Positions 8,516 to 14,312 of a DNA stretch of 64,000 bases are shown here, piece after piece; within the stretch, counting starts at the first letter, position 1; every line of letters begins with the position of its first letter. The stretch lies in contig JBGQEL010000006.1 of the NCBI GenBank assembly GCA_041496385.1, positions 222-64,221 on the forward strand, read 5' to 3'. The notes beneath the pieces were generated by a model. That model searched no databases, had not been told where the DNA came from, and saw only the letters and a list, made by a program, of their open reading frames with translations. The position numbers and the translations under genes were made by a program. This DNA comes from Candidatus Methylomirabilia bacterium. GTDB lineage: Bacteria; Methylomirabilota; Methylomirabilia; Rokubacteriales; CSP1-6.

Positions 8516-9307
8516 ATGCCGATGGAGATCGCCGGCCTGAAGGTCGAGCGCGCGGGGCCGCGGGTGCCCGAGCGCGACCGCCCCGTCCTCTTCGTCCACG
8601 GCATGTGGGGCGGCGCGTGGATGTGGGACGACTACCTCGGCTTCTTCGCTGGGCACGGCTACACCTGCTACGCGCTGAACCTGCGCGGGCATCACGGCTC
8701 GAAGCCGGTGCCCGACGGCGGCCGCGTGCCCTTCGCCGACCACGTGACCGACGCGCGCGGCGTCGTCGCCGCGCTCGGCAACCCCATCCTCGTCGGCCAC
8801 TCGATGGGCGGCCTCCTGGTGCAGAAGCTCGCCGAGCTGCTAGACCCGCCGGCCGTGGTCGCGCTCACGCCCGCCGCGCCCCGGGGCATCCTGCCGCTCT
8901 GCACGCTGGAGCTCGCGCGGCTGTCGCTGAAGCATCTCCACGAGATGCTGCTCGCCCGGCCCGTCGTGCCGTCGTTCGATGAGGCCGAGGCGCTGCTCTT
9001 CGGCCGGATCCCGCCCGCCGAGCGCCGCAGGGCGTACGAGCGTCTCGTGCCCGAGTCGGGCCGGATGACGTTCGACATCGCCGTCCGGGGCGTGCCCGTG
9101 GCCGCCGCCCGCGTGCGGAGCCCGATGCTCGTGGTGGCGGCCCGCGAGGACCGCATCACGCCCGCGACGATGGTGCGCAAGATCGCGCGGAAGTACGGTG
9201 CCGAGCTGCGCACGTACGACGATCACGCGCACATGGTCCTGCTGGAGCCCGGCTGGGAGCTCATCGCCGGGGAGATCGTGAGCTGGCTCGAGAAGGAGGC
9301 TCGATGA
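8516..9307 (+). CDS. Alpha/beta hydrolase
   Basis: The sequence LFVHGMWGGAWMWD...VGHSMGG carries the nucleophile elbow GHSMG. The protein is 263 aa. Confidence 0.75.
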   Translation: MPMEIAGLKVERAGPRVPERDRPVLFVHGMWGGAWMWDDYLGFFAGHGYTCYALNLRGHHGSKPVPDGGRVPFADHVTDARGVVAALGNPILVGHSMGGLLVQKLAELLDPPAVVALTPAAPRGILPLCTLELARLSLKHLHEMLLARPVVPSFDEAEALLFGRIPPAERRRAYERLVPESGRMTFDIAVRGVPVAAARVRSPMLVVAAREDRITPATMVRKIARKYGAELRTYDDHAHMVLLEPGWELIAGEIVSWLEKEAR

Positions 9308-10518
9308 AGACCCTTCGGGACAAGTACTGCATCGTGGGCGTGGGAGAGACCGAGTACTCGCGCGGCTCGAAGCGGACGACGCGCGCGATGGCCGTCGAGG
9401 CCGTCCGTACGGCGATCCTCGACGCGGGACTCACGGCCCGCGACGTGGACGGCATGCTGGACTACCAGTCCGGCGACTCCACGCTCGCCAGCCACGTCGC
9501 GTCCGACCTCGGCATCCGCCTCAACTTCTTCATGGACGTGGTCGGCGGCGGCTCGTCCACCGAGGCGCTGATCGGCCTGGCGATGGGCGCGATCGAGGCC
9601 GGGATGTGCAACGCGGTCGCCATCTACCGCTCGATGAACGGCTACAGCGAGTTCCGCATCGGCGGCACCGGCGCGCGCGCCGCCCAGCCCGTGCGCGGCC
9701 TCGACCTCGCCCAGGTGCCCTTCGGCATGCGGAGCGCCGGCCAGAACTTCGCGCCGACCTTCCTGCGCCACATGTACGAGTACGGGACCACCTCGGAGCA
9801 GGTCGCCCACGTGAAGGTCGCCCACAGCAAGCACGCCTCGAACAACCCGAAGGCGCTCCTGAAGGAACGGGTGACCGTCGCGGACGTCGTGGGCTCGCGC
9901 TGGATCGTGAAGCCGCTCCACCTCCTCGACTGCTGCCTGGAGACCGACAACGCGACCTGCCTGGTCGTGACCACGGCCGAGCGCGCCCGCGACCTCCGGC
10001 GGCGTCCCGTGCACATCCTGGGCGTCGCCGGGCGCGTGTCGAAGCCGCGCCTCGATTTCCACTGGGCGCACGGCCCCATCACGCGCGTGGCCGGTTACTA
10101 CGCGAAGGACATCGTCTTCGGCCAGGCCGGCGTCGGCCCCGAGGACGTGGACGTCACGGGCTCCTACGACGCGTTCACGTTCACGACGATGCTGCAGCTC
10201 GAGGAGTACGGCTTCTGCAAGAAGGGGGAGGGCGGGCAGTACGTCTCGAGCGGGATCATCGAGCTCGGCGGCGGGCGCCCGAACAACACCGCCGGCGGCC
10301 ATCTCTGCGAGGGCTACACCCACGGGATGTCGATGGTGATCGAGAACGTCCGTCAGCTCCGGGGCACCGTGGACGACTACTGCCCGAGGGCCGCGGAGGG
10401 TGTGCACACCTACGACTACGCCGCGGGCCGCTGTCGCCAGGTGAAGGACACCGAGGTCACGATGAACCTCGGCTGGGCCATGCCGCCGATTGGCAGCGCG
10501 CTGATCATGCGTCGATGA
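9304..10518 (+). CDS. Thiolase-like lipid-transfer protein (SCP-x / Ltp type thiolase fold)
   Basis: The sequence MKTLRDKYCIVGVGETEYSRGS...GGHLCEGYTHG is typical of Ltp/SCP-x thiolase-like proteins that pair with DUF35 proteins. It overlaps the upstream gene by 4 nt. Confidence 0.8.
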   Translation: MKTLRDKYCIVGVGETEYSRGSKRTTRAMAVEAVRTAILDAGLTARDVDGMLDYQSGDSTLASHVASDLGIRLNFFMDVVGGGSSTEALIGLAMGAIEAGMCNAVAIYRSMNGYSEFRIGGTGARAAQPVRGLDLAQVPFGMRSAGQNFAPTFLRHMYEYGTTSEQVAHVKVAHSKHASNNPKALLKERVTVADVVGSRWIVKPLHLLDCCLETDNATCLVVTTAERARDLRRRPVHILGVAGRVSKPRLDFHWAHGPITRVAGYYAKDIVFGQAGVGPEDVDVTGSYDAFTFTTMLQLEEYGFCKKGEGGQYVSSGIIELGGGRPNNTAGGHLCEGYTHGMSMVIENVRQLRGTVDDYCPRAAEGVHTYDYAAGRCRQVKDTEVTMNLGWAMPPIGSALIMRR

Positions 10519-10525
10519 ACCCGCC

Positions 10526-11047
10526 ATGGAGGTGTCGCTGATGCCCGAGCCCGTCCAGTACCGCGGGATGTCGCTCATCGTCCCGGACAACGACACGGAG
10601 TGGAAGGAGTTCTACGCGCACGCGCGCGCCCACCGGCTCGTCGTGCGCAAGTGCGCCGCCTGCGGCCTCCTGCGGTACCCGGCGACGCACGCCTGTCCCT
10701 GGTGCATGGAGCTCGGCTGGACCTGGCAGGAGGTCTCCGGGCGCGGCGCGATCTACTCCTACGAGATCGTCCATCACGCGATCCAGCCTGGCTTCCGCGA
10801 GCTCACGCCCTACGCCGTCGTGCTCGTCGAGCTCGACGAGCAGCGGGGGACGCCCACGCCCGACGAGGCGCTCAGGATCATCGGCAACCTCCTGAAGCCC
10901 GACCTCTCCCCCGAGGCCGAGGAGCAGGTCGCCATCGGCAAGCGCGTGCGCGTGATCTTCCAGGACCTCGCCGACCACATGGCGCTGCCGCAGTTCGCGC
11001 TGACCGACGAGCCGGCGCAGGGACGCGTGTGGCGCCTCACGCCGTGA
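10526..11047 (+). CDS. Zn-ribbon OB-fold protein (DUF35 / ChsH2-like partner of Ltp thiolases)
   Basis: The sequence RKCAACGLLRYPATHACPWC is a rubredoxin-like zinc ribbon, and an OB-fold region follows. The protein is 173 aa. Confidence 0.8.
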   Translation: MEVSLMPEPVQYRGMSLIVPDNDTEWKEFYAHARAHRLVVRKCAACGLLRYPATHACPWCMELGWTWQEVSGRGAIYSYEIVHHAIQPGFRELTPYAVVLVELDEQRGTPTPDEALRIIGNLLKPDLSPEAEEQVAIGKRVRVIFQDLADHMALPQFALTDEPAQGRVWRLTP

Positions 11048-11555
11048 GCCTCCTCACGATGTCGTCGAACGCCCCCTCGGCCAGCGCGCGGACCTCGTCA
11101 CGGGTGAGCGGCTGGATGGGATGCGCGACGACGACGGTCGGATAGTCCCGGGCGCCGAGGGCGCCCGCCTGGGCGCGCGCGGCCTGCACGAACTCCGACG
11201 AGATGATCGTCGCGGTGGGAATGCCGTTGTCCTCGAAGAACACGCCGTCGTGCACACTGCACGTTGTGCAGGACCCTCAGTCCGCGAGCGCCTCGATCAG
11301 CACGTCGGTCGCCCCGACGATCTCCCGCCTGAGATCGTCCGGCGCCGGTCGCGCGAACGTGGGCTTTCGCTTCCTCACGATGGCCTTCGGCCTCGCACGC
11401 TCACGCAGCAGCTCCTCGATCCGCTCGAGGAGGTGATCCCCCTTGGCCTTGGAGATGTCGAGCAGCGTGACGATCTTGCCGTCGAGGCTCGACGGCCGCG
11501 GGGCGGTCTTCCGCGGAACGGCGACGGAGGCGGTCGGGTCGAGGTAGTCGGACAT
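11037..11555 (-). CDS. Candidate UGSC-family selenoprotein, with an in-frame TGA at 11277-11279 read as selenocysteine
   Basis: Track ORFs 11277..11573 and 11037..11255 are in the same frame and are separated only by a TGA plus 7 codons. Read-through gives ...VLIEALAD-U-GSCTTCSVHDGVFFEDNG... The true start is the ATG at 11553-11555 (MSDYLD), which follows a strong ribosome-binding site (GACAGGAGGAGAGACC). The downstream ORF has no ribosome-binding site or ATG of its own. Confidence 0.55.
11250..11276 (-). promoter_or_regulatory. SECIS-like hairpin immediately 3' of the in-frame UGA
   Basis: The mRNA reads UGA GGGUCC CUGCAC AAC GUGCAG UGUGCAC. This is a 6-bp perfect stem (CUGCAC/GUGCAG) that starts 6 nt after the UGA, with alternative extended pairings. 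The position and size are compatible with a bacterial Sec insertion sequence, but this was not modelled. Confidence 0.3.
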
Positions 11556-11569
11556 GGTCTCTCCTCCTG

Positions 11570-12613
11570 TCACGGGGTCTGGATCGGCCTGAACACCAGC
11601 GTCGAGCTCTTGGCGAACGTCCAGCCGGGGACGATCGCCGAGAACCGTCCGGCCGTGCCGCCTGCCACCAGGATCTTCAGATTGTCGGGCGCGCGGAACT
11701 TCGGCATCGGCGTGGCGTCGTTCGAGGGATCGGCGAACTTCCTCAGCACGTGCTCCGGGAGTCCTTCACCGCCGTCCCGGCCGGGCACCAGCTCGCGCAC
11801 CGGGCGGCGCAGGCGCTCCCAGAGCCAGCGGCGCACGTCGTCCTTCGTCCAGCGGGCGTCGCCGAGCGTCTTCGCGTGCTCGGGCGAGAGCACCACCAGC
11901 GTGTCGCCCCAGTGCGTCGCCTTGTGGTGCGAGACGACGCCGAGGCTCGCGGCGATCGTCGCCAGGAGGTCCTCGGGCCGCCGCGATTGATGGTCGTAGA
12001 CGCCGAGCGGCGCATCGGCCGCGAGGACCGCGACGGTGCTCCCCCCGCGCGCGAATCCGTGCTCGACGGCCAGCGACTCCCAGGGGCTCGCCTCTTCGTG
12101 CTCGCCGATGCAGTAGGTGTAGCGGCCCGGGTGGGCCAGCGTGGACATGCTGACGACGCCCGGCGTCGCGCCGCCGACGTTGACGCAGACGAGGCGCAGG
12201 GCGCGGCCGATCGTCGCGTTGGCCCGCCAGCCCGAGCCGAAGACACCGGCGGCGCAGTTGATGTCGAGGGCGCCGCGGATCGGACCGTTGACGATGACGA
12301 GGGGCGCCGGCGAGTTCGTGGTCGCCGACACGCCGTGGAGATCGAAGCGCTCGTCGCAGACCGCCTCGACGGCGGCGAGGACGACGGGGAGGTACTCCGG
12401 GCGGCAGCCCGCCATGACCGCGTTGGTCGCGATCTTCTCGACGGTGGCGGCGCCGTAGTTGGGGGGAACGAGGGCCACCACCTCGCTCGCGTCCCGCCCC
12501 GCCGCCCCGACCGCGCGCGCCACGCGTTCGCGCGTCGGCGGGACGACGGGCAGCCCGTCGGTCACGCCGCGCGCGTAGAGCTCCTCGATGAGGTCGGGGT
12601 CGGCGAGTGACAT
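11570..12613 (-). CDS. Hypothetical protein (347 aa) translationally coupled to the candidate selenoprotein
   Basis: The start was chosen at MSLADPDLIEELYARG. The stop TGA at 11570-11572 lies inside the ribosome-binding-site region of the next gene. The protein has coding-like composition and several conserved-looking Cys (MAGCRPEY, AVCDERF, DINCAAG, LVCVNVGG), but I do not recognise a family. Confidence 0.55.
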   Translation of the reverse strand: MSLADPDLIEELYARGVTDGLPVVPPTRERVARAVGAAGRDASEVVALVPPNYGAATVEKIATNAVMAGCRPEYLPVVLAAVEAVCDERFDLHGVSATTNSPAPLVIVNGPIRGALDINCAAGVFGSGWRANATIGRALRLVCVNVGGATPGVVSMSTLAHPGRYTYCIGEHEEASPWESLAVEHGFARGGSTVAVLAADAPLGVYDHQSRRPEDLLATIAASLGVVSHHKATHWGDTLVVLSPEHAKTLGDARWTKDDVRRWLWERLRRPVRELVPGRDGGEGLPEHVLRKFADPSNDATPMPKFRAPDNLKILVAGGTAGRFSAIVPGWTFAKSSTLVFRPIQTP

Positions 12614-12664
12614 GCCCAGAAGGCTAACACACGCCGACCCCAAGGGCGCCGCGCGCGGGGGCCG

Positions 12665-14143
12665 CTAGCGCCGGATGATGTGCTCGGCGATCTCGAACGC
12701 CTCTCGGAACTCGTTCACCGCGCGCTGGAAGTAGCCGTGGGCGAGCGCCGCCAGCCCGTCGTTCAGCTGCTCCTGCGCCTGCCGGACGCGCCGGTCGCGC
12801 GCGCCGACCTTCGCGATCGCGAGCGCCAGCTCGTGCTGGGCCGCGTCGCGCGCCGCCGCGGCGACGTTGGCGTCCGTCCGCCCACCGAAGAGGCGGCTGA
12901 CAAACGACGCGAGCATCAGGTTGGCGGCGTTCAGGTCGCTCTTCAGCTTGACGTTGTCCGCCGTCAGCGCCGCGTTCGGCTTCTTGAGGTCCGCGACCTG
13001 CTGCTGCAGCCCGGTGATCTGCGTGTTCAGCGCGGCGTTCTTCTTCCAGAGGTCGGAGAGCGCCGCGTTCGCGTCGGCGAGCTGCTGCCGGAGCTTGTCC
13101 AGCTCGGTCGAGCACGCCCCGCCGGCAGCCGGCGCGCCCGCGACGAAGGCGCCGAACGCCTCCGGATGCTCCCCGACGGCGACCGTGGCGGCGATCGTGT
13201 TCGTGGCCGCGTCGATCACCGACACGCTGGCACCCATGTCGTTGCCGACGAAGACCCGCGTGCCGGTCGGATCGACCGCCAGGCCGAAGGGGCTCCGCCC
13301 GACGGGCACGTTCGCGATGACCGTGTTCGTCGGGGCGTAGATCACGGAAACCGTGTCCTCACCGGCGTTCGTCACATACACGAGAACGCCGGTGGGGTTC
13401 ACCGCCACGCTGACCGGCGAGCTGAAGGGCGCCGCGCCGACCGGCACGGTGGCCACGACGGTGTTCGTGGACGTGTCGATCACGGAGACCGTGTTGTCCA
13501 CCTGGTTGGCCACGTAGACCCGCGAGCCCGATGGGCTCACCGCCAGGCCCATCGGAAAGGCGCCGACCGGGACCGACGTGATGACGGTGTTGGCGCCGGC
13601 GTCGATCACCGCGACGCTGTTGGTCGCGGAGTCCACGACGTACACGCGCGTGCCGGCCGGGTTGACCACGACGCCGATCGGCGTGCTCGGAAACGGGTGC
13701 ACCGTGATCGTGCGGACGACCGTATTGGTCGCGGCGTCGAGCACGGAGACCGTCCCGTCCCCGTTGTTGGCGACGTAGACGAGCGTGCCGGCCGGATTGA
13801 CCGCGATACCGCTCGGCGAACTGCCGACGGGCACCGTGGCGATCACGGTGTTCGTGGCGGTGTCGAGCACCGAGACCGTGCCCCCGTTGAAGTTGCCGAC
13901 GTACGCGCGTGTGCCGGCCGCATTCACCGCGACGCCGAACGGCTGATCGCCGACCGCGACGGTCGTCACGACGGTGTTGGTCGCGCCGTCGATCACTGAG
14001 ACGTTGTTCGAGCCGAAGTTCGGGACGTACGCCAACGGCGCCGCGTCCGCGGTCGAAAGCGCGGCGCTCACGACGAGCGCGAGCGTGATGAAGCCCAGAA
14101 AGATTCCGGAAAGTCGCGTGGGGAGCGGGCTTTGGTTCACCAT
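12665..14143 (-). CDS. YVTN-family beta-propeller repeat protein with signal peptide and C-terminal coiled-coil
   Basis: About nine degenerate ~40-aa repeats (e.g. AYVPNFGSNNVSVIDGATNTVVTTVAVGDQPFGVAVNAAGTRAYVGN) lie behind a signal peptide. The last ~130 aa are a heptad-like coiled coil (LDKLRQQLADANAALSDLWKKNAALNTQITGLQQQVADLKK). The start could instead be the ATG at 14179. Confidence 0.8.
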   Translation of the reverse strand: MVNQSPLPTRLSGIFLGFITLALVVSAALSTADAAPLAYVPNFGSNNVSVIDGATNTVVTTVAVGDQPFGVAVNAAGTRAYVGNFNGGTVSVLDTATNTVIATVPVGSSPSGIAVNPAGTLVYVANNGDGTVSVLDAATNTVVRTITVHPFPSTPIGVVVNPAGTRVYVVDSATNSVAVIDAGANTVITSVPVGAFPMGLAVSPSGSRVYVANQVDNTVSVIDTSTNTVVATVPVGAAPFSSPVSVAVNPTGVLVYVTNAGEDTVSVIYAPTNTVIANVPVGRSPFGLAVDPTGTRVFVGNDMGASVSVIDAATNTIAATVAVGEHPEAFGAFVAGAPAAGGACSTELDKLRQQLADANAALSDLWKKNAALNTQITGLQQQVADLKKPNAALTADNVKLKSDLNAANLMLASFVSRLFGGRTDANVAAAARDAAQHELALAIAKVGARDRRVRQAQEQLNDGLAALAHGYFQRAVNEFREAFEIAEHIIRR

Positions 14144-14312
14144 GCGCGCAGTATAGTGCAGCGCCGATGCCAGCCCCAAAAACGCCCTATCGTTCAGGAG
14201 CTTGGCGTGCGGGCGCCGCCCTCCGGCGAGTCAGGACGGCGTGACGGAACGGCAGCGGATGGCAAATTTCGTCAGTGGCGAGCCCGATGGAGGCGCCGGC
14301 CGCGGCGCCCGG

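What the first reader, a model, noticed from the sequence alone, without database searches (positions are those of the whole stretch)
11570..12613. Unrecognised 347-aa protein translationally coupled to the candidate selenoprotein
The gene upstream of the candidate selenoprotein is a 347-aa protein that I could not place in any family.
- Its stop codon sits inside the ribosome-binding site of the selenoprotein gene, so the two are clearly co-transcribed and co-translated.
- It has several conserved-looking Cys and a Gly-rich segment (CVNVGGATPGVV).
- A dedicated partner for a UxxCxxC redox selenoprotein could be a substrate-specific reductase subunit, by analogy with GrdE/GrdB or PrdA/PrdB. 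If so, this pair may be an undescribed reductase system.
Basis: inference. Interest (0 to 1): 0.65.

Follow-up and report, generated by a model that had tools for sequence, protein, structure and literature searches.

The report
Uncharacterised obligate partner of UGSC selenoprotein
The 347-aa gene is real and belongs to a very large, unnamed protein family with no solved structural relative that is almost always encoded next to, or fused with, the UGSC selenoprotein, so the pair probably forms an undescribed thiol/selenol-dependent redox enzyme whose substrate is unknown.

Summary
A 347-aa gene on the minus strand (11570-12613) ends 1 nt before the AGGAGG ribosome-binding site of the next gene. 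It has no Pfam, NCBIfam or PDB sequence match.

The downstream "candidate selenoprotein" is a known family of unknown function, UGSC (PF24696 / NF041046). Its in-frame TGA is conserved and followed by a SECIS-type hairpin.

The pairing with UGSC is near-obligate:
- 75 of 80 Rokubacteria loci
- 64 of 80 metagenome loci from another lineage (most of the rest are cut by contig ends)
- 11 of 11 UGSC hits on plasmids
- both gene orders
- natural fusions, in 34 of 112 diverse members

Additional fused or adjacent modules are thioredoxin reductase, thioredoxin, ResA-like, FtrB-like and NifU-like.

Best reading: this is the substrate-binding or catalytic subunit of a UGSC-dependent redox enzyme fed by thioredoxin-type reductases. 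It works like Grd/Prd reductases but is not homologous to GrdE/PrdA. The substrate and the chemistry remain unknown.

The parts
11570..12613 (-). Gene for the 347-aa protein, a member of a large unnamed family (the proposed catalytic or substrate-binding partner of UGSC)
   Evidence: ORF and translation. Start shared with homologues. 5,300 50%-identity clusters. AF2 pLDDT 94.6, pTM 0.93. No Pfam, NCBIfam or PDB match.
12533..12559 (-). Codons for the N-terminal motif D19-G-L-P22-V-V-P25-P26-T27, the most conserved stretch of the family
   Evidence: D19 110/112, G20 109/112, P22 112/112, P25 103/112, P26 107/112, T27 100/112.
12404..12406 (-). Codon of Cys70 (motif A-G-C), a conserved candidate redox or catalytic cysteine at the N-terminus of helix 72-85
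   Evidence: C in 107/112 members; G69 is invariant. Secondary structure. Replaced by Ala or Gly in 5 members that keep C168.
12152..12187 (-).
   Evidence: N145, G147, G148, P151 and G152 are conserved. It lies in a loop after helix 130-146, not in a Rossmann motif.
12095..12112 (-). Codons for C168-I-G-E171-H-E173 (family consensus C-x-A-E-N-E), containing the second conserved Cys and the invariant Glu
   Evidence: C168 102/112, E171 112/112, E173 98/112. C168 is Val, Ala, Phe or Ser in 10 members that keep C70.
11563..11568 (-). Shine-Dalgarno AGGAGG of the UGSC gene. It starts 1 nt after the stop codon of the 347-aa gene and ends 7 nt before the ATG.
   Evidence: Read directly from the sequence.
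11037..11555 (-). UGSC-family selenoprotein gene (172 codons including Sec93; motif D-U-G-S-C-T-T-C)
   Evidence: Translation. PF24696 at 1.8e-51 and NF041046 at 3.3e-46.
11277..11279 (-). In-frame TGA read as selenocysteine
   Evidence: TGA is retained at this position in all 75 Rokubacteria orthologues. Cys is found at the same position in Roseovarius, Natrinema and Arthrobacter.
11247..11274 (-). SECIS-type hairpin immediately after the Sec codon
   Evidence: Predicted hairpin. Third codon positions are 100% invariant in codons +1, +3 and +5..+10 across 60 distinct orthologues. Only the predicted bulge and loop codons vary, against 50-85% conservation further downstream. There is no Rfam hit.

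Best explanation
The 347-aa protein is the substrate-binding or catalytic subunit of a two-component enzyme. Its other subunit is the UGSC (seleno)protein encoded 14 nt downstream.

UGSC is a flavodoxin-like domain that carries a U/C-G-S-C redox motif at the N-terminus of a helix. The two proteins form a tight complex; in many organisms they are one polypeptide.

Proposed electron path: NAD(P)H or ferredoxin, then a thioredoxin-type reductase (TrxR, sometimes with TrxA, a fused ResA-like domain or a fused FtrB-like domain), then the Sec/Cys-x-x-Cys of UGSC, then the active site of the 347-aa protein. That site contains Cys70, Cys168, the invariant Glu171 and a set of conserved Arg, Asn and Thr residues. 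There a small molecule, probably a carboxylate or acyl-CoA-related compound, is reduced or reductively cleaved.

What is shown and what is inferred:
- Shown: the gene is real, the family is large, the fold has no solved relative, the association and fusion with UGSC hold, and Trx-type modules co-occur.
- Inferred: the direction of electron flow, the redox role of C70 and C168, the reductive chemistry and the substrate class.
For: **Real, conserved protein**
- More than 7,990 90%-identity clusters match and 5,300 50%-identity clusters, 1,312 of them at E<=1e-30.
- The family occurs in Rokubacteria, alpha-, beta- and gamma-proteobacteria, actinobacteria, Negativicutes and haloarchaea.

**Pairing with UGSC**
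- UGSC lies directly downstream in 75 of 80 Rokubacteria loci, each with the Sec TGA.
- It is adjacent on the same strand in 64 of 80 metagenome loci of another lineage. Most of the other 16 are cut by contig ends.
- All 11 UGSC hits on plasmids lie within about 150 nt of a family member.
- Both gene orders occur.

**Fusions**
- 34 of 112 diverse members carry a UGSC domain, N- or C-terminal.
- An AF2 model of the natural fusion P0202 gives pLDDT 93.3 and pTM 0.93 over 528 residues despite a low-confidence linker, which implies a defined interface.

**Redox relay**
- trxB or a TrxR-like flavoprotein is adjacent in Roseovarius, Variovorax (two strains), Arthrobacter (with trxA) and Haloterrigena. 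Contiguous TrxR->UGSC->family occurs in L175, L178 and L184.
- Fused modules are ResA/AhpC-like in 5-6 of 112 members, FtrB-like in 2 and NifU-like in 1.
- Even when a Trx-like or FtrB-like domain is fused, a separate Sec-UGSC gene remains adjacent. UGSC is therefore the constant partner and the upstream reductant varies.

**Enzyme-like conservation.** D19, P22, T57, G69, C70, T99, N132, R137, C168 and E171 are conserved.

**Catabolic context.** Recurrent neighbours are LysR regulators, TRAP, TTT and MFS transporters, family III CoA-transferases, MaoC and SDR genes.
Against: - No reaction, cofactor or substrate has been demonstrated for any member.
- No TrxR-like gene lies in the 64-kb window or within 6 kb of the pair in the 80 Rokubacteria loci. 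TrxR adjacency is only 6 of 80 in the metagenome set.
- Neither conserved Cys is universal: C70 is lost in 5 and C168 in 10 of 112 members, never both. A strict C70-C168 catalytic disulfide is therefore unlikely.
- Some paralogues stand alone without UGSC (L080).
- Neighbour genes are heterogeneous, and no single pathway emerges.
Confidence: 0.55

Rival explanations
1. The 347-aa protein is a redox-neutral enzyme (isomerase, racemase, hydratase, lyase or hydrolase) acting on a small organic acid. UGSC only keeps its catalytic cysteine reduced, or switches the enzyme on and off.
For: - The conserved set (one or two Cys, an invariant Glu, Arg, Asn and Thr) also fits Cys-dependent isomerases or hydrolases.
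- Each Cys can be lost singly.
- Sub-domains resemble chorismate-mutase/YjgF-like and Toblerone-type hydrolase units.
- Neighbours include hydratases and dehydratases: MaoC, aconitase X, enolase.
Against: - A purely protective or regulatory partner is rarely obligate, rarely fused in both orders, and rarely kept as a selenoprotein across hundreds of lineages.
- Layering of TrxR, Trx or FtrB on top of UGSC implies stoichiometric electron throughput.
Confidence: 0.2
2. UGSC is the actual enzyme or effector. The 347-aa protein is its accessory factor: a scaffold, a specificity or docking subunit, a chaperone, or a reductase/recycling factor for the Se-S bond.
For: - UGSC carries the only obviously catalytic residue, Sec.
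- The 347-aa protein has no recognisable cofactor motif.
- Two paralogues can flank one UGSC, and tandem double-domain proteins exist, as expected for a scaffold.
Against: - The 347-aa family shows enzyme-like invariant polar residues.
- It is the larger and more diversified partner, with many paralogues per genome, which suggests it confers substrate specificity.
- TrxR, Trx and FtrB already supply the recycling function.
- Stand-alone paralogues exist.
Confidence: 0.12
3. The protein is a very distant relative of class I (4Fe-4S) hydro-lyases such as fumarate or tartrate dehydratase alpha domains. It binds an Fe-S cluster through C70 and C168 plus a ligand from UGSC, and the NifU-like and FtrB-like fusions reflect cluster handling.
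For: - The best Foldseek PDB hits are Leishmania and M. jannaschii class I fumarate hydratases (E about 1e-3, alignments over about 370 columns).
- NifU-like and FtrB-like fusions exist.
- Aconitase X genes neighbour two fusions.
Against: - hhalign against E. coli TtdA and FumA gives probability below 1%.
- Only two Cys are conserved and each is dispensable in some members.
- Most partner modules are dithiol/selenol oxidoreductases, not cluster carriers.
Confidence: 0.08

Closest known systems
Stickland reductases: D-proline reductase PrdA/PrdB and glycine/sarcosine/betaine reductase GrdE/GrdB (+GrdA, TrxB, Trx)
   Same: - A small Sec-containing subunit with a U-x-x-C motif at the start of a helix is paired, and translationally linked, with a larger Sec-free subunit.
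- Thioredoxin reductase or thioredoxin genes appear in the same operon in several organisms.
- A profile alignment of UGSC to a GrdB-like fragment places Sec on Sec and 'E..GIPTV' on 'E..GISTV' (47 columns, E 0.004).
   Different: - The 347-aa protein does not match Pfam Gly_reductase or any other model, and UGSC does not match GRDB.
- hhalign probability is only 8.5%.
- There is no invariant Cys, Ser or Thr that could be a universal pyruvoyl precursor.
- The system occurs mostly in aerobic soil, aquatic and halophilic organisms and in catabolic islands with LysR, CoA-transferase and TRAP/TTT genes, not in Stickland fermenters.
UGSC family (seleno)protein, PF24696 / NF041046, and the 'UGSC/Unknown_1 fusion' of Zhang & Gladyshev 2008 (PMC2398784)
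   Same: - The downstream gene is a clear member of this family.
[quoted passage not shown]
- The fusions found here are most likely that same architecture.
   Different: - The published figure is an image, so identity of 'Unknown_1' with this family could not be verified.
- The literature does not describe the near-obligate gene pairing, the TrxR/FtrB layer or the fold.
- The AF2 model shows UGSC as flavodoxin/Rossmann-like, not thioredoxin-like as the paper suggested.
Thioredoxin-dependent reductases (for example MsrA/MsrB, ArsC, PAPS reductase) and ferredoxin:thioredoxin reductase relays
   Same: - There is a relay of CxxC/UxxC modules ending on an enzyme with conserved Cys.
- The upstream reductant is interchangeable: TrxR, Trx, a ResA-like domain or an FtrB-like domain.
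   Different: - A dedicated, non-thioredoxin-fold carrier (UGSC) is always interposed.
- The terminal enzyme has no sequence or whole-fold similarity to any of these.
Class I Fe-S fumarate/tartrate hydro-lyase alpha domain and Toblerone-fold cyclic amide hydrolases
   Same: These are the weak best structural matches; sub-domains have the beta-alpha-beta(2) chorismate-mutase/YjgF type.
   Different: - Profile comparison probability is below 1%.
- The Cys pattern does not fit a three-Cys cluster site.

Membership tests
GrdE/PrdA-type substrate-activating subunits (Pfam Gly_reductase PF09338) | Detectable sequence similarity to the family profile | tested here: not met
   hmmscan against Pfam-A at E<=1 returned no family for the 347-aa protein. 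None of the 112 diverse members hit it either.
GrdE/PrdA-type substrate-activating subunits (Pfam Gly_reductase PF09338) | Self-cleavage at a strictly conserved Cys to give an N-terminal pyruvoyl group | tested here: inconclusive
   - No Cys is invariant: C70 is present in 107/112 members and C168 in 102/112, with Val, Ala, Phe or Ser replacements.
- T57 is Thr, Ser or Cys in 109/112.
- Cleavage itself cannot be tested in silico.
GrdE/PrdA-type substrate-activating subunits (Pfam Gly_reductase PF09338) | Partner selenoprotein belongs to GRDB (PF07355) | tested here: not met
   The partner matches UGSC (PF24696) and not GRDB at E<=1. There is only a weak in-register hhalign match to a GrdB-like fragment (E 0.004, probability 8.5%).
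Partner domain of UGSC ('Unknown_1', PMC2398784) | Found fused to a UGSC domain in single polypeptides | tested here: met
   - 34 of 112 family members carry PF24696 / NF041046, N- or C-terminal.
- Annotated fusions occur in Vibrio, Sporomusa and Variovorax.
Partner domain of UGSC ('Unknown_1', PMC2398784) | Sequence identity with the published Unknown_1 alignment | not testable with these tools
   Figure S1A is held only as an image.
UGSC family (downstream gene) | Match to PF24696 / NF041046 above the curated cut-off, with the U/C-G-S-C motif | tested here: met
   175.1 bits against a cut-off of 25, and 157 bits against a cut-off of 125. The motif D-U-G-S-C is present. TGA is conserved in 75 of 75 orthologues.
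Class I Fe-S hydro-lyase alpha domain (fumarate/tartrate dehydratase) | Profile-level sequence homology | tested here: not met
   hhalign of the family alignment against E. coli TtdA gave probability 0.8% and against FumA 0.1%.
Class I Fe-S hydro-lyase alpha domain (fumarate/tartrate dehydratase) | Three conserved Cys ligands for a 4Fe-4S cluster | tested here: not met
   Only two Cys are conserved and each is dispensable in some members.
Thioredoxin-system-dependent reductase (functional class) | Genomic or physical linkage to TrxR, Trx or FTR-type reductants | tested here: met
   - trxB, trxA or TrxR-like genes are adjacent in Roseovarius, Variovorax (two strains), Arthrobacter and Haloterrigena, and in 6 of 80 metagenome loci.
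- FtrB-like, ResA-like and NifU-like fusions occur.
- No such gene is present in this window or in the 80 Rokubacteria loci.
Thioredoxin-system-dependent reductase (functional class) | Substrate-dependent oxidation of the dithiol/selenol donor | not testable with these tools
   This requires biochemistry.

The most novel reading that the evidence does not exclude
The family and UGSC together constitute a previously unrecognised, widespread class of selenol/thiol-dependent enzyme. It combines a new fold with a flavodoxin-like U/CxxC subunit and catalyses a reductive transformation of small organic acids or acyl-CoA-related compounds in soil, freshwater and hypersaline microbes. That would finally give a function to one of the most abundant environmental selenoprotein families.
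Probability: 0.4. Interest if true: 0.8.

Novelty: new variant of a known kind. Interest (0 to 1): 0.62.

Why it matters
UGSC has been listed since 2005-2008 among the most abundant prokaryotic selenoproteins in environmental metagenomes, and a 2026 review still lists it among the selenoproteins whose functions remain largely uncharacterised.

This work shows that UGSC has a near-obligate partner from a huge family that curated libraries do not name, with no solved structural relative. It also shows that the pair is wired to thioredoxin-type reductases. Together these turn 'function unknown' into a testable hypothesis with defined components: TrxR + UGSC + partner.

Culturable hosts are available for genetics: Roseovarius, Paracoccus, Variovorax, Arthrobacter and haloarchaea.

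The work also flags a family of more than 5,000 50%-identity clusters that deserves a Pfam or NCBIfam model.

Tried and rejected
- **Curated libraries.** Pfam and NCBIfam scans of the protein and of 112 diverse relatives hit only the fused partner domains.
- **PDB sequence and profile searches.** Nothing beyond chance HisF matches at E>0.06.
- **AFDB search.** Unavailable.
- **Class I fumarase/tartrate dehydratase homology.** Tested with hhalign and rejected.
- **GrdB-UGSC homology.** Only a weak in-register match, left open.
- **Rossmann-type reading of CVNVGGATPGVV.** Rejected from the secondary structure.
- **GOS Figure S1A.** Could not be read, as it is held as an image.
- **Rfam.** No SECIS model hit. 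The hairpin is not more stable than shuffles (z = 0). The SECIS argument therefore rests on synonymous-site conservation.
- **Promoter and terminator scan.** Uninformative.
- **Neighbour-gene census.** No universal third component.
- **Literature search.** No paper describing the partner was found.
Full report
**What is in the sequence**

On the minus strand an ORF runs from ATG 12613 to TGA 11570-11572 and encodes 347 aa. Close homologues start with the same 'MSLAD...', so this start is preferred over an upstream TTG at 12643. One base after the stop comes AGGAGG (11563-11568), and 7 nt further the ATG (11555) of the next gene. The stop thus abuts the ribosome-binding site rather than lying inside it, and the two genes are 14 nt apart.

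The downstream gene reads '...EALAD-TGA-GSCTTC...'. With Cys substituted for the TGA it matches Pfam UGSC (PF24696, 1.8e-51) and NCBIfam 'UGSC family (seleno)protein' (NF041046, 3.3e-46). So the 'candidate selenoprotein' is a catalogued family. The literature calls it a selenoprotein of unknown function and one of the most abundant in the GOS metagenomes (PMC2398784, PMC1976440, PMC13188914).

Sec decoding is credible for two reasons:
- All 75 Rokubacteria orthologues keep TGA at that codon, while Roseovarius, Natrinema and Arthrobacter have Cys.
- In 60 distinct orthologues, the third positions of codons +1, +3 and +5..+10 after TGA are 100% invariant. Only the predicted bulge and loop codons vary, against 50-85% conservation further downstream. 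This is the signature of a bacterial SECIS hairpin (11247-11274). Rfam has no hit, and the hairpin is not more stable than shuffles.

**The 347-aa protein is unannotated but not an orphan**

It has no Pfam or NCBIfam hit at E<=1 and no PDB sequence or profile hit of significance. It nevertheless matches more than 7,990 90%-identity clusters, all labelled 'hypothetical' and without Pfam domains. It also matches 5,300 50%-identity clusters, 1,312 of them at E<=1e-30.

The closest relatives are Candidatus Rokuibacteriota/Methylomirabilota. On plasmids, the family also occurs in haloarchaea, alpha-, beta- and gamma-proteobacteria, actinobacteria and a Negativicute.

Across 112 diverse members the conserved positions are D19-G-L-P22-x-x-P-P-T27, T57, A-G69-C70, T98-T99, N109-G-P, R130, N132, G136-R137, N145, C168-x-x-E171-x-E173, P177-W178, H246, K257 and G318-G319. 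P22, G69 and E171 are invariant.

Only two of the five cysteines are conserved, C70 in 107/112 and C168 in 102/112. Each is replaced in a few members, never both. The Gly-rich 'CVNVGGATPGVV' is a conserved loop after a helix, not a dinucleotide-binding motif.

**Structure**

AlphaFold2 with this alignment gives pLDDT 94.6 and pTM 0.93.
- Foldseek against the PDB finds nothing at E<1e-3. The best matches are class I (4Fe-4S) fumarate hydratases (E about 1e-3, TM 0.26-0.30) and Toblerone-fold cyclic amide hydrolases.
- hhalign of the family against E. coli TtdA and FumA gives probabilities below 1%.

The whole fold therefore has no solved relative, and the fumarase lead is not supported at sequence level. 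The AFDB library was not available.

**Pairing with UGSC is the main result**

*Rokubacteria.* 75 of 80 loci have UGSC immediately downstream. One of the five exceptions (L030) ends inside the family gene. The other four include stand-alone paralogues from genomes that also carry a paired copy; L080 was inspected.

*A different lineage.* I seeded a search with the Roseovarius homologue. A UGSC profile then hits the same strand next to the family gene in 64 of 80 metagenome loci. Most of the remaining 16 end at or within the gene.

*The reverse direction.* All 11 plasmid records with a UGSC hit carry it within about 150 nt of a family member.

*Gene order.* Both orders occur.

*Fusions.* 34 of 112 diverse members contain a UGSC domain in the same polypeptide. 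This is either N-terminal (with CGSC, or truncated by gene callers at the Sec codon) or C-terminal. Tandem double-domain proteins of about 715 aa exist, as do loci with two paralogues around one UGSC.

The 2008 GOS paper mentions a 'UGSC/Unknown_1 fusion'. This is very probably the same architecture, but the figure is held as an image and could not be checked.

**Redox wiring**

Annotated contexts:
- Roseovarius: LysR | family -> UGSC -> trxB.
- Variovorax SRS16: trxB -> TTT binding protein -> SDR -> family -> UGSC.
- Arthrobacter: trxB -> trxA -> family -> UGSC.
- Haloterrigena: UGSC -> family -> Pyr_redox_2 flavoprotein.
- V. boronicumulans: NAD(P)/FAD oxidoreductase -> TTT binding protein -> UGSC-family fusion.
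- Three metagenome loci (L175, L178, L184): TrxR -> Sec-UGSC -> family, contiguous.

Other members are fused to ResA/AhpC-like thioredoxin-fold domains (5-6 of 112), to FtrB-like domains with the CPC...CPC...CHC motif (2) or to NifU-like CxxC domains. P0176 is a UGSC-family-FtrB triple fusion.

When a Trx-like or FtrB-like domain is fused, a separate Sec-UGSC gene is still adjacent. UGSC is therefore the constant partner and the upstream reductant is what varies. This resembles the TrxR -> Trx -> selenoprotein -> substrate-binding protein logic of glycine and proline reductases.

The limits are these. No TrxR-like gene lies in this window or near the 80 Rokubacteria pairs. TrxR adjacency is only 6 of 80 in the short metagenome contigs.

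**Context and substrate**

Neighbours are heterogeneous.
- Among 129 non-redundant neighbours: LysR regulators (9), family III CoA-transferases (7), MpaB/Lcp-like (6), TctC (5), DAO (4), TPP enzymes (4) and TrxR-like (4).
- Among 39 likely operon partners: MpaB-like (6), LysR (5) and CoA-transferase (4).
- Annotated plasmids add TRAP, TAXI and MFS transporters, SDRs, a CoA ester lyase and DUF6282.
- In the window, the pair converges on a DUF35/ChsH2-like gene and an SCP-x-type thiolase.

This points to catabolism of small organic acids or acyl-CoA-related compounds, with different substrates in different subfamilies. It does not identify a substrate.

**Comparison with known systems**

Functionally the closest analogy is PrdA/PrdB and GrdE/GrdB with TrxB/Trx. 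Membership fails, however:
- No Pfam Gly_reductase or GRDB match.
- No invariant Cys, Ser or Thr for a pyruvoyl group.
- Only a weak, although in-register, profile alignment of UGSC to a GrdB-like fragment (E 0.004, probability 8.5%).
- UxxCxxC is specific to the Rokubacteria clade; the family motif is U/C-G-S-C.

**Verdict**

A dedicated, conserved partner in an undescribed redox system is well supported. GrdE/PrdA-like chemistry is an analogy only.
- The window copy is a typical member of the family, not an oddity of this genome.
- The finding is of moderate to high interest. It gives UGSC a defined partner and an electron-supply chain, and it exposes a very large family that curated libraries do not name and that has no solved structural relative.

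Noticed in passing
window 11247-11274 (-), after TGA 11277-11279: A SECIS-type hairpin. Across 60 distinct orthologues, the synonymous positions of codons +1, +3 and +5..+10 after the Sec codon are 100% invariant. Only the predicted bulge and loop codons vary. Rfam has no matching model.
   Followed up: yes
[not shown]
   Followed up: partly
window 9304-11047 (+): An SCP-x-type thiolase (9304-10518) and a DUF35/ChsH2-like OB-fold/zinc-ribbon protein (10526-11047) converge on the pair. The DUF35 gene overlaps the UGSC 3' end by 11 nt. This convergent arrangement is syntenic in 54-58 of 80 Rokubacteria loci.
   Followed up: partly
window 12665-14179 (-): A 504-aa YVTN/lactonase-type beta-propeller with a C-terminal coiled coil lies 51 nt upstream of the 347-aa gene. 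It is found at this position in only 1 of 80 related loci, so it looks like a lineage-specific insertion between the pair and the VWA(CoxE)/MoxR-like genes.
   Followed up: partly
L087 (Vibrio europaeus), L088 (Sporomusa termitida), L091 (Variovorax boronicumulans), L185: Distant UGSC-family fusions sit beside aconitase X + DUF126 in two unrelated bacteria. Related fusions sit near ornithine-cyclodeaminase/mu-crystallin and DHDPS-family genes. This hints at imino-acid (hydroxyproline-type) metabolism for that subfamily.
   Followed up: no
P0129, P0140 (about 715 aa); L090 4319-6981; L095 5001-7230: The family also occurs as tandem double-domain proteins and as two paralogues flanking one UGSC gene. 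This suggests hetero- or pseudo-dimeric assemblies.
   Followed up: partly
L080 6031-7032: A Rokubacteria paralogue (333 aa) stands alone between a response-regulator gene and a convergent CBS-domain gene, with no adjacent UGSC, in a genome that also has a paired copy (L045).
   Followed up: partly
L085 (Paracoccus ferrooxidans pFER4) 10371-12146: selB lies about 3 kb from a Sec-type UGSC/family pair on a megaplasmid, with DsrE, TusA and cysteine desulfurase genes nearby.
   Followed up: no
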